Shown one piece after another: positions 29,601 to 32,583 of a stretch of DNA of 32,583 nucleotides. This stretch comes from a virus (taxonomy: Duplodnaviria; Heunggongvirae; Uroviricota; Caudoviricetes): the IMG/VR virus record IMGVR_UViG_2718218449_000009; one strand, written 5' to 3'. Within the stretch, counting starts at the first letter, position 1. The number at the start of each line of letters is the position of its first letter. The position numbers were made by a program.

Positions 29601-32583
29601 TCCTTTCAGTCCGAACTTAGCTTTAATTTCTGCGATCTTCGCCAGAGCCTGTGCACGATTTAGAGGTCTACCGCCCATAACAGGAAGTTGTTTTACTGGT
29701 TCAGGTATCGTCTCACCACGGTTAATTCGCGCTGTCATACAGGTCAGTTCATCGGCAGCCTTGCGCCGTAATTCCGCGTCAGTCAGCGCATTGGCCCGCA
29801 TGTTCTGGTACAAGTTGGTAACCAACCAGTAATGCGCGTTCGATTTCCACGGATAAGACTCTGCATCCGGATACAGGCCACGCTTCCGGCAATACTCGTA
29901 AACCATATCAACCAGCTCGCTGACGTTTGGCAGTCCGGCGATAACGGATGCTTCTTCCCGGCACCATGCAACAAACTGCCCGGGTGATGGCAGAAATGGT
30001 CGATTCTGCCGACGGGCTACGCGCATTCCTGCGTTAACCTGTTCCATTGTGGTGATCCCGTTTTCCCGGAAAGCCAGAACCCACTGGCGGCGGATTTCGT
30101 TCAGTTCGTTCTGGTCACGGTTAGCCAGACTCGCCGGGAAAGTTGCCAGTAACTGGCTGAACACACCGTTGATGATCTGCGCTACCTGCTGTACCTGCGG
30201 CTTTTCGTCGTACTGTTCCGGCATGTTGTTGGCGATCCGACGCATCTGCTCACGGTCAAAGTTAACCATCTGTGCGGCGATGTTTTTCATAAATCCACCC
30301 CGTAAATCCAGTCAGTGTTTGTCAGGTCGAGTTTTGGTTTGCTGGCTATCATGCCTGCCTGTTGCTTGTTACGGTTGATTTCGAGCTGGGTCCACTTGTC
30401 GCGGAGTTTGGCCGGACTTAGCACGTTACCGGACCAGAAGTTGTCCTGGCATGCCCAGCGGAACAGCACGCACATGTCGCGGTGGTTACGTCCGTCACGT
30501 TCACGCATCAGGCGGATATCGTTAGCCCACCCTGCAAAATTCGGTTTTCTGGCTGATGGCGCGATGGTCTTCACCATGTCAAACATCCACTCTGCGGCGG
30601 TCAGGTCTTCTGCTGTCCCCCACTTGCTGCCGCTCTGAATTGCAGCATCCGGTTTCACCACAGGAAGATCGTTTTCTGGTTGGTCAGAGGATTCGCCAGA
30701 ATTCTCGGACGAAAAAGGTTTTATATTGTCTTTTGTTAGTTTGTCTTTTGTGTTTACCTGATTCGGGTAAACGCCTTTACCTGATTTGGGTAAACTTTTT
30801 TTACCTGATTCAGGTAAATTTACCTCTTTCAGGTAAACTTTATTTTTCTTACCTGATTCGGGTAATGTTGACCATTCACTGACCACATTATTAATGCCGG
30901 TATTCCGCCCGCTCTGAATAAAAATCCCACGCTTTACCAGAACACTTTTTGCAGCAGAACACTTGTGCGGCAATATCCCGGTTAATTCGGAAAGTTGCTC
31001 GTTGCTAACCCAATCCAGTTTTTTATTAAAGCCATATGTTTTGCGCATGACAGCCAGAAAGACCAGAAGCTGGTGAAAAATTGATAAATTCAATACTGCA
31101 TTTCTCAGCATTAAATTTATCTCTATGACCAGTCAAGAGATGTACCTGCCATGAGCTTAATATCATGTCAGATATATCGGTCACAAACTCCCTCAGCAGC
31201 TAAGAGGAGGACAAATGTCTCGACTAATCACTTTACGGGACTGGGCTAAAGAAGAATTTGGGGACTTAGCACCAAGTGAGCGAGTTCTGAAAAAATACGC
31301 GCAAGGGAAAATGATGGCCCCACCCGCTATAAAAGTTGGTCGCTACTGGATGATTGACCGAAATTCCCGTTTTGTAGGAACGCTTGCAGAACCGCAACTC
31401 CCAATAAACGCAAACCCAAAACTCCAACGGATAATCGCTGATGGCTGCTAGCCCCCGATCTCACAAAATCTCTATACCCAATTTATATTGCAAATTAGAT
31501 AAGCGAACCGGAAAGGTATATTGGCAATACAAACATCCACTATCCGGTCGTTTTCATAGCTTAGGAACTGATGAGAATGAAGCAAAACAAGTTGCTACTG
31601 AAGCAAATACCATTATTGCTGAACAACGTACCCGACAAATATTAAGCGTCAATGAGCGTCTGGAAAGAATGAAAGGCAGGCGCTCAGACATTACGGTGAC
31701 AGAATGGCTTGATAAATATAATTCTATCCAGGAGGACAGGCTGCAACATAATGAACTAAGACCCAACTCCTATCGGCAAAAAGGCAAACCCATCCGTCTT
31801 TTCCGTGAGCATTGTGGAATGCAACACCTCAAGGATATTACCGCACTTGATATTGCCGAAATAATTGATGCTGTAAAGGCTGAAGGTCATAACAGGATGG
31901 CGCAAGTCGTGAGAATGGTGTTGATCGACGTCTTCAAAGAAGCACAACACGCAGGACATGTTCCGCCAGGATTTAACCCAGCGCAGGCAACAAAACAACC
32001 GCGAAATCGAGTAAACCGTCAAAGATTATCACTGCCCGAATGGCAGGCAATATTTGACAGCGTAAGCAGACGGCAGCCCTATTTAAAATGCGGGATGCTA
32101 CTTGCTCTTGTCACTGGACAACGTTTAAGCGATATCTGCAATTTGAAATTCTCTGATATCTGGGACGACATGTTGCACATTACTCAGGAAAAAACCGGTT
32201 CAAAACTTGCTATTCCGCTTAACCTGAAATGCGATGCTCTGAATATTACCCTTCGTGAAGTTATATCTCAGTGCAGGGATGCTGTTGTTAGTAAATATCT
32301 GGTCCATTACCGTCACACTACCTCTCAAGCAAACAGAGGAGACCAGGTGTCTGCAAATACTCTTACAACGGCTTTTAAAAAGGCCAGGGAAAAATGTGGC
32401 ATAAAATGGGAGCAAGGAACTGCGCCCACATTTCATGAGCAGCGATCTCTGTCAGAACGGTTATATCGGGAACAGGGTCTGGATACGCAAAAGTTGTTAG
32501 GTCATAAATCCAGAAAAATGACCGACCGATACAATGATGATCGTGGTAAAGACTGGATTATCGTAGATATCAAAACAGCATAG

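What the first reader, a model, noticed from the sequence alone, without database searches (positions are those of the whole stretch)
30721..30866. Origin iterons differ from lambda, matching the diverged O N-terminal domain
Five copies of a 17-bp dyad-symmetric iteron (TTACC-N7-GGTAA) lie inside the O gene next to an AT-rich block, the ori-lambda architecture, but the iteron sequence is unlike the lambda iterons I recall. The O N-terminal domain, which reads iterons, is diverged while the P-interacting C-terminal domain is lambda-like. This is the co-variation expected of a distinct replication specificity, here possibly stranded by the O truncation.
Basis: partly seen in the sequence, partly recalled or inferred. 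Interest (0 to 1): 0.45.

Follow-up and report, generated by a model that had tools for sequence, protein, structure and literature searches.

The report
Orphaned non-lambda replication origin in prophage

Summary
Five exact TTACC-N7-GGTAA dyads (window 30754-30865) sit next to a 25% G+C block (30721-30752), inside an O-like initiator gene on the minus strand.

The interpretation also holds.
- The O N-terminal domain is 48.7% identical to lambda O; the C-terminal part is 96.5% identical.
- The switch to lambda homology falls at the last iteron.
- In a panel of 11 O types, iteron arms change with the N-terminal domain, and most closely with a short segment of it (here ILPHKCS).
- The gene is truncated. 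A deletion joined at window 31075 removed O codons 1-47 and everything upstream as far as a gene next to xis.

It is not new.
- The same five iterons with an intact 309-aa O occur in 15 sequenced phage records, such as Perceval and 4A7.
- The block is present in 2453 of 5426 complete E. coli genomes, and at least 80% of it in 2297 of them.
- The principle that the O N-terminus sets origin specificity dates from 1978.
- Iteron spacing is the same as in lambda, with one extra upstream iteron.

The origin here is most likely an inactive relic. I found no paper describing this iteron class. Phage 82, a plausible classical owner, could not be checked. Interest is low.

The parts
30849..30865 (-). 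Iteron 1 (first in the O reading direction), TTACCCGAATCAGGTAA. It is the extra iteron relative to lambda and lies 29 bp from iteron 2.
   Evidence: identical in phage Perceval
30820..30836 (-). Iteron 2, TTACCTGAAAGAGGTAA, with a divergent spacer.
30801..30817 (-). Iteron 3, TTACCTGAATCAGGTAA.
30777..30793 (-). Iteron 4, TTACCCAAATCAGGTAA.
30754..30770 (-). Iteron 5, TTACCCGAATCAGGTAA. It abuts the AT-rich block, and homology to lambda-type O genes starts inside it, at about 30763.
30721..30752 (-). AT-rich, strand-asymmetric block (ACACAAAAGACAAACTAACAAAAGACAATATAA on the O strand). It is the presumed unwinding region.
   Evidence: 25% G+C and AT skew -0.73. The ACAAAAGA motif lies 10.5 nt from the centre of the last iteron, as in lambda, P22 and HK97-type origins.
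30287..31075 (-). Truncated O gene, corresponding to codons 48-309 of the intact homologue. It covers positions 28-95 of 95 of the Phage_rep_O domain, the linker that holds the origin, and the lambda-like C-terminal domain.
30947..30976 (-). Codons for ILPHKCSAAK. In the panel, this N-domain segment changes together with the iteron arms, so it is the inferred DNA-reading segment.
   Evidence: alignment read against the arms; inference from 11 sequences
31075..31076 (.). Deletion junction. O codon 48 is fused to the remnant of a DUF4222 gene that lies upstream of xis in intact phages.
   Evidence: The two halves of a 200-nt query split at query position 100, and the junction is present in 296 of 5426 genomes.
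31076..31214 (.). Remnant of the DUF4222 gene and the DNA upstream of xis. It supplies the 12 non-O codons (MLRNAVLNLSIF) of the 274-aa ORF.
29589..30290 (-). Intact lambda-type P gene (helicase loader). Its start overlaps the O stop codon.
   Evidence: Phage_lambda_P, 208 bits
31215..32583 (+). xis and int. The prophage end lies next to icd.

Best explanation
The feature is the replication origin of a lambdoid replicon whose origin specificity differs from lambda's. It lies inside its own initiator gene.

How it works in intact relatives such as phage Perceval:
- Dimers of a 309-aa O protein bind the five TTACC-N7-GGTAA dyads through the N-terminal Phage_rep_O domain.
- The resulting nucleoprotein complex destabilises the adjacent AT-rich block.
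- The lambda-like C-terminal domain of O recruits the P-DnaB complex.
This mechanism is inferred from homology to lambda and was not shown here.

What happened in this window: a single deletion with its junction at 31075 removed O codons 1-47, including the most conserved motif of the family (RVADLDDGYTR...LLEA). Because it fuses O directly to a gene next to xis, it also removed the whole early and immunity region (cII, cro, cI, N and the recombination genes), and with it the rightward promoter.

The origin is therefore most likely an inactive relic: intact DNA sites with no cognate initiator and no activating transcription. The module boundary is the usual one. The N-domain and iterons form one exchangeable unit, and the AT-rich block, C-domain and P form another.
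For: Anatomy: five exact dyads plus an AT-rich block inside a Phage_rep_O gene.

Intact relatives: all five iterons are identical in phage Perceval, and 15 sequenced phage records match the iteron/N-domain block at 97-100%. At least 80% of the N-domain plus iteron block is present in 2297 of 5426 E. coli genomes.

Geometry: iteron centre spacing is 19/24/23 and the distance to ACAAAAGA is 10.5 nt, against 20/24/23 and 10.5 nt in lambda, 20.5/24/23 in P22 and 20/24/23 in the HK97 type.

Modularity: the N-domain is 48.7% and the C-part 96.5% identical to lambda. Klebsiella GZ7 keeps the same arms with a C-part only 24% identical and a DnaC-type loader. SEN34 has a lambda-like C-domain (80%) but TTAGC arms.

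Truncation.

No cognate O elsewhere: two O157-lineage genomes listed (strains 472 and 142) show only the truncated copy of this O type.

Literature: the O N-terminus binds DNA and the C-terminus binds P, from Furth and Yates 1978 and Wickner and Zahn 1986, as cited in PMC6022878. P22 gene 18 carries its own repeats, which differ from lambda's (PMC8022706).
Against: No binding or replication experiment exists for this iteron class in the literature I could search.

A 274-aa ORF with a new 12-residue N-terminus remains open. It keeps the inferred DNA-reading segment and the P-binding domain, so residual activity cannot be excluded by sequence alone.

The promoter scan that found nothing reading into O' matches only a simple consensus.

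Asadulghani et al. 2009 scored O and P as apparently functional in every lambdoid Sakai prophage except Sp3. If this prophage is their Sp8, that assessment disagrees with the truncation seen here.
Confidence: 0.85

Rival explanations
1. The orphan origin still works in trans. One possibility is that it acts as a decoy, titrating the O protein of incoming phages of the same specificity and so interfering with their replication. The other is that such a phage's O fires it, amplifying or helping to mobilise this prophage, which keeps int, xis and a full set of late genes.
For: All five dyads are perfect. Cognate intact O genes are very common in E. coli. Plasmid-borne ectopic ori-lambda copies block lambda growth (PMC4488673), and the iteron-dependent inhibition phenotype does the same (PMC3349717). 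Interactions between O157 prophages are documented (PMC2669165). The prophage retains int, xis, Q, lysis, head and tail genes.
Against: The published decoy effects used multicopy plasmids, and the inhibition phenotype also needs oop transcription; the oop position, upstream of O, is deleted here. A single chromosomal copy should titrate little O. The flanking DNA is equally well conserved (about 98%), so the intact iterons are not evidence of selection. Sp8, the Sakai prophage whose profile matches this one, showed no circularisation, replication or packaging.
Confidence: 0.1
2. The repeats are kept for the protein they encode, a repeated LPESGKK-like flexible linker, and are not DNA-binding sites.
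For: The repeats are translated in frame, and the linker between O domains tolerates insertions. Stx phages carry 13 extra residues there (PMC7466680).
Against: Each unit is a perfect 5+5 dyad, which no peptide repeat requires. The spacing matches lambda's experimentally footprinted iterons to within a base pair. The encoded peptides differ widely between types, while the dyad architecture is kept.
Confidence: 0.02
3. The truncated O' (274 aa) is expressed and acts through its intact C-terminal domain. It might buffer the toxicity of P, or interfere with the replication of co-resident prophages that use lambda-type P.
For: The ORF is open with an ATG at 31111. The C-terminal part is 96.5% identical to lambda O. 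P is intact. Co-expression of O and P reduces P lethality (PMC6022878).
Against: The consensus scan found no promoter-like site reading into the ORF. There is no convincing ribosome-binding site upstream of 31111 (reading of the sequence). RefSeq annotates it as a pseudogene.
Confidence: 0.05

Closest known systems
[quoted passage not shown]
   Same: The origin lies inside the initiator gene, between the N- and C-domain coding parts. The repeats are 17-19-bp dyads with 5-nt arms and a 7-nt spacer. The last four iterons are spaced 19-20/24/23 bp. The AT-rich block begins 10.5 nt after the centre of the last iteron. The C-terminal domain is nearly identical (96.5%), and a lambda-type P follows.
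   Different: The arms are TTACC/GGTAA rather than TCCCT/AGGGA. There are five iterons rather than four. The N-terminal domain is only 48.7% identical. The inferred reading segment is ILPHKCS rather than LPVKRCN.
Intact O/ori of Escherichia phages Perceval (OV696612), 4A7, Lambda_4C10, 1W, 3W, Turner and the PhiR series, which are functional DLP12-like phages
   Same: This is the same replicon type. The iteron/N-domain block is 97-100% identical, and all five iterons are identical in Perceval. P, ren, emrE and ybcK follow in the same order in Perceval.
   Different: Those phages have the full 309-aa O with cII, cro and cI upstream. The window lacks O codons 1-47 and the whole early region.
Origin within gene 18 of Salmonella phage P22
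   Same: It is the most similar classical origin. The arms are TTACC/GGTAA-like, the spacing is 20.5/24/23, the ACACAAAAGAC boundary is the same, the N-domain is 60% identical, and the reading segment MAPTKCS is similar.
   Different: The spacer within each dyad is 5-6 nt rather than 7. There are four iterons. The C-terminal part is only 23% identical over a short aligned stretch, and it pairs with a DnaB-type helicase (gene 12) rather than P.
Klebsiella phage GZ7-type O
   Same: It has the same TTACC-N7-GGTAA arms (four exact, one degenerate), identical spacing, an 84% identical N-domain and an identical ILPHKCS segment.
   Different: Its C-terminal part is only 24% identical and it is followed by a DnaC-type loader. 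This shows that the N-domain and iterons move as a unit, independently of the helicase-recruiting half.
Phage 82 origin (Moore, Denniston and Blattner 1981)
   Same: This is a lead from memory only. Lambda-82 hybrid O proteins show that 82 has its own N-terminal specificity with a C-terminal half close enough to lambda's to recombine (Furth and Yates 1978, cited). As I recall, DLP12-type late regions are also close to phage 82.
   Different: Not testable here. No phage 82 origin record appeared among the matches at 95% identity or above in the phage collection, and the original papers are not held.

Membership tests
Lambdoid O-type origin (iteron origin embedded in the initiator gene) | Four or more direct repeats of about 17-19 bp, each with internal dyad symmetry | tested here: met
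   Five exact TTACC-N7-GGTAA units; 0 of 100 shuffles reach the observed count.
Lambdoid O-type origin (iteron origin embedded in the initiator gene) | The repeats lie inside the O reading frame, between the N-terminal DNA-binding domain and the C-terminal domain | tested here: met
   ORF 30287..31111 (minus strand). Phage_rep_O ends at ORF residue 80 and the iterons start at residue 83.
Lambdoid O-type origin (iteron origin embedded in the initiator gene) | An AT-rich, strand-asymmetric block lies immediately downstream of the last iteron on the O strand | tested here: met
   25% G+C at 30720-30759 and AT skew -0.73; same offset as in lambda.
Lambdoid O-type origin (iteron origin embedded in the initiator gene) | Iteron phasing like lambda's (about 20/24/23 bp) | tested here: met
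   19/24/23 for iterons 2-5, against 20/24/23 in 434/lambda.
Lambdoid O-type origin (iteron origin embedded in the initiator gene) | The cognate O protein binds the iterons and replication starts there | not testable with these tools
   No experiment on this iteron class was found in the papers searched.
Lambdoid O-type origin (iteron origin embedded in the initiator gene) | An intact initiator gene and upstream transcription in cis, that is, a working replicon | tested here: not met
   O lacks codons 1-47 and profile positions 1-27 of 95. The upstream DNA is replaced by a DUF4222 gene remnant. This feature is met in relatives such as Perceval.
Lambda replication specificity (rep-lambda) | Iterons of the TCCCT-N7-AGGGA type and a lambda-like O N-terminal domain | tested here: not met
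   The arms are TTACC/GGTAA and the N-domain is 48.7% identical.
Lambda replication specificity (rep-lambda) | A lambda-like O C-terminal domain paired with lambda-type P | tested here: met
   The C-part is 96.5% identical, and P matches Phage_lambda_P at 208 bits.
P22 gene 18 origin type | The same iteron (arms and spacer) and the same N-domain | tested here: not met
   The arms are alike, but the dyad spacer is 5-6 nt rather than 7 and the N-domain is 60% identical.
Pfam Phage_rep_O (PF04492) | Match above the gathering score | tested here: met
   69.6 bits against a cut-off of 28.7, but covering only profile positions 28-95. The intact homologue scores 116.6 bits over positions 1-95.

The most novel reading that the evidence does not exclude
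The orphan five-iteron array is not inert. It may be kept in the O157:H7 lineage (296 genomes share the deletion) as a trans-acting site. When a phage with the cognate O infects, the array could soak up that O, or be fired by it. The first would weaken the incoming phage. The second would amplify or help mobilise this prophage, which has no regulators but keeps complete packaging and structural genes.
Probability: 0.08. Interest if true: 0.35.

Novelty: already known. Interest (0 to 1): 0.1.

Why it matters
It matters little beyond annotation. It shows that this prophage's origin belongs to a specificity class distinct from lambda's, and that the class is among the most common in E. coli. It also shows that the prophage cannot start its own replication.

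Two by-products have modest value. First, there is a compact table of iteron arms against a seven-residue segment of the O N-domain across 11 origin types; this gives a testable guess at the DNA-reading residues of a protein family for which sequence search found no solved structure. Second, there is an exact deletion junction that marks the O157:H7 lineage.

Tried and rejected
Chance: rejected by the shuffle test.

Lambda, 434 or 21 type origin: rejected by direct comparison with the annotated iterons.

P22 type: rejected as identical because the dyad spacer differs. It is the nearest classical relative.

Presence in K-12 DLP12: checked and rejected. The DLP12 deletion goes deeper, leaving only a P fragment (peaD), so there are no iterons.

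Phage 82: I tried to check whether it owns these iterons. No record appeared among the close matches, searches for papers citing the original work gave no sequence detail, and the one classic paper I asked for by id is not held (one search was a malformed query).

Papers on the Perceval/Bievrevirus group: the four papers that mention the genus do not concern replication, judging by their abstracts.

Solved structure by sequence: none with E-value up to 1.

Promoter and terminator scan: nothing reads into O'. There is one weak hairpin, which I treat as uninformative.

Not run: the large protein-database searches and structure prediction. They could not change the verdict, and intact O sequences from fetched loci cannot be submitted to the structure tool.

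A Python call failed on a file name and was repeated.

Full report
WHAT IS THERE

On the plus strand, window 30754-30865 holds five exact copies of TTACC-N7-GGTAA, at 30754, 30777, 30801, 30820 and 30849. With one mismatch allowed, the pattern occurs 7 times in the window against 0.56 expected, and none of 100 shuffles reaches 7. The five exact copies lie within 112 bp.

Next to them, 30721-30752 is the most AT-rich stretch of the region. G+C is 25% and the AT skew is -0.73, so the strand that codes for O is A-rich.

All of this lies in ORF 30287..31111 on the minus strand. That ORF matches Pfam Phage_rep_O and is followed by an intact lambda-type P gene.

WHERE THE WINDOW COMES FROM

The last 4 kb is 100% identical to E. 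coli O157:H7 chromosomes. The gene order there is icd, int, xis, a replication protein annotated 'incomplete; missing N-terminus', P, ren, emrE and ybcK. Nin-region genes, Q, lysis, head and tail genes follow. The window is essentially one whole prophage of the DLP12 kind, inserted next to icd.

Its functional profile has these features:
- no repressor or Cro;
- no recombination genes;
- int and xis present;
- complete morphogenesis genes;
- a lambda-type P.

This matches what Asadulghani et al. reported for prophage Sp8 of strain Sakai (PMC2669165). That identification is my inference and was not checked by coordinates.

THE TRUNCATION

Phage Perceval (OV696612) carries a 309-aa O, counted from the ATG that follows a GGAGG, with cII, cro and cI upstream. 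The window aligns with it only from window 31075 downwards, which corresponds to codon 48.

From 31075 upwards, the window is 99.5% identical to the DNA that lies upstream of xis in other intact phages. That DNA is part of a DUF4222 gene.

A 200-nt query across the join splits into these two halves at query position 100. The joined form is found in 296 of 5426 complete genomes, and the sampled full-length hits are O157:H7-type strains.

One deletion therefore removed O codons 1-47 and the whole early region. Pfam confirms this: the window's O covers profile positions 28-95 of 95, while the intact protein covers 1-95. The lost part holds the most conserved motif of the family, RVADLDDGYTR..N.LLEA.

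The consensus scan found no promoter-like site reading into the remnant.

IS THE ORIGIN TYPE DIFFERENT FROM LAMBDA?

Yes. The lambda-type iterons annotated in phages 434 and 21 are TCCCT-N7-AGGGA. The N-terminal domain of this O is 48.7% identical to lambda's, and the C-terminal part is 96.5% identical. DNA homology to lambda-type O genes begins at about window 30763, inside the last iteron.

The module boundary is thus the junction between the iterons and the AT-rich block.

DOES THE ITERON CO-VARY WITH THE N-DOMAIN?

I took O genes at graded distances from a tblastn search, fetched them and read their origins. Each has 4-7 dyads with 5-nt arms, and the arms differ by type:

| Arms and spacer | O types |
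|---|---|
| TTACC-N7 | window, Perceval, Klebsiella GZ7 |
| TTACC-N5/6 | P22 |
| TTAGC-N7 | SEN34, Yersinia 21.09, HK97-like 2851 and mEp213 |
| GAGAC | Morganella |
| TCCCT | lambda |
| GTCAC | mEp043 |
| TTCCC-N6 | phi80-like mEp237 |
| TCCCY-N6 | Gifsy-2 |

GZ7 has an 84% identical N-domain and keeps the same arms, even though its C-terminal part is only 24% identical and the next gene is a DnaC-type loader. SEN34 has a lambda-like C-domain (80%) but different arms. So the N-domain and iterons travel together, independently of the helicase-recruiting half.

Whole-domain identity is an imperfect predictor. SEN34 and phage 2851 share TTAGC arms at only 39% identity. A seven-residue segment tracks the arms better:

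| N-domain segment | Iteron arms |
|---|---|
| ILPHKCS or MAPTKCS | TTACC |
| (K/I)HHTH(V)C | TTAGC |
| LPVKRCN | TCCCT |
| LSRQNVN | GAGAC |
| LPRQKVN | GTCAC |

I infer that this segment, at window 30947-30976 on the minus strand, reads the arms. This rests on 11 sequences and no structure. No solved relative was found by sequence.

GEOMETRY

Centre-to-centre spacing of iterons 2-5 is 19/24/23 bp. The centre of the last iteron is 10.5 nt from the ACAAAAGA motif. The corresponding values are 20/24/23 and 10.5 in lambda, 20.5/24/23 in P22, and 20/24/23 in the HK97 type.

The window type is therefore a lambda-geometry origin with changed arms and one extra iteron 29 bp upstream. This accounts for the 10-residue insertion relative to lambda O.

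HOW IT MOST LIKELY WORKS

By homology to lambda, O dimers bind each iteron through the N-terminal domain, and the C-terminal domain binds P (Furth and Yates 1978; Wickner and Zahn 1986; Tsurimoto and Matsubara 1981; all as cited in PMC6022878). The assembled complex opens the AT-rich block.

In intact relatives this is presumably a working replicon, since those records are named, sequenced phages. In this window the DNA sites are intact, but the initiator lacks its first 47 residues and its promoter. In two O157-lineage genomes listed (strains 472 and 142) only the truncated copy of this O type is present. The origin is thus most likely a relic.

The binding and firing steps are inferred. The anatomy, homology and truncation are shown.

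RIVALS

A trans-acting role, as a decoy or as a helper-fired origin, is conceivable. Plasmid-borne ectopic ori-lambda copies block lambda (PMC4488673), and an iteron-dependent inhibition phenotype exists (PMC3349717). However, those effects used multicopy plasmids, and the inhibition phenotype also needs oop, whose position is deleted here. The perfect iterons are no better conserved than their flanks.

A purely protein-coding origin for the repeats is contradicted by the dyad symmetry and the lambda-like phasing.

Expression of the 274-aa remnant is possible but unsupported.

NOVELTY

The same O/ori pair is present at 97-100% identity in 15 sequenced phage records. It is also in 2453 of 5426 complete E. 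coli genomes, with at least 80% of the block in 2297 of them. It is annotated everywhere as replication protein O, and here as a pseudogene. The principle that the O N-terminus sets origin specificity is decades old. The literature already notes that P22 and phage L have their own repeats (PMC8022706) and that Stx phages have six lambda-type iterons (PMC7466680).

I found no paper that spells out the TTACC-N7-GGTAA class. I could not test my recollection that phage 82 may be its classical representative.

VERDICT

This is a correct reading of an ordinary, already catalogued feature. Interest is low.

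Noticed in passing
window 31075-31076: An exact deletion junction fuses O codon 48 to a DUF4222 gene remnant upstream of xis. The junction is shared by 296 of 5426 complete E. coli genomes, and the sampled hits are O157:H7-type strains, so it could serve as a lineage marker.
   Followed up: yes
window 30947-30976 (minus strand); loci L001, L003, L004, L006-L014: A seven-residue segment of the O N-domain (ILPHKCS here) tracks the iteron arm sequence across 11 origin types better than whole-domain identity does. SEN34 looks mosaic within its N-domain: the first half is like Perceval, while this segment and the arms are like HK97.
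   Followed up: partly
window 30744-30753; same position in L003, L004, L006-L011, L013: The motif ACAAAAGA (extended to ACACAAAAGAC in the window, lambda/434, P22, GZ7 and the HK97 type) lies exactly 10.5 nt from the centre of the last iteron. This holds in 8 of the 11 origin types examined. It coincides with the point where homology to lambda begins, so it is a likely recombination joint between replication modules.
   Followed up: partly
window 27119-29276; L001 4354-5789: emrE and the ybcK serine recombinase follow O-P-ren in the sequenced phage Perceval, exactly as they do in this prophage and in K-12 DLP12. These 'host' genes are therefore cargo of a live phage family. In K-12 DLP12 a deeper deletion leaves only a P fragment (peaD) and no origin.
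   Followed up: partly
L006 (Klebsiella phage GZ7) 801-1655: It has the same TTACC-N7-GGTAA iterons and an 84% identical N-domain, joined to a C-terminal part only 24% identical and followed by a DnaC-type loader. This is a clean natural domain swap.
   Followed up: partly
window 31083-31121 (minus strand): An AT-rich hairpin of 16 pairs (3 G-C) followed by a T-run lies just upstream of the junction on the O strand, inside the DUF4222 remnant. It was flagged as terminator-like by a simple scan whose hit count did not exceed that of shuffles.
   Followed up: no
whole window (prophage next to icd): Asadulghani et al. 2009 scored O and P as apparently functional in all lambdoid Sakai prophages except Sp3. 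If this prophage is their Sp8, as its profile suggests, the O truncation seen here disagrees with that score. It does fit their finding that Sp8 showed no circularisation, replication or packaging.
   Followed up: partly
window 1-27000: The prophage keeps int, xis, Q, lysis genes, bor, terminase, a full head and tail set, lom and tail-fibre genes, although it has lost all early regulators. In principle it could therefore be complemented by a related helper phage.
   Followed up: no
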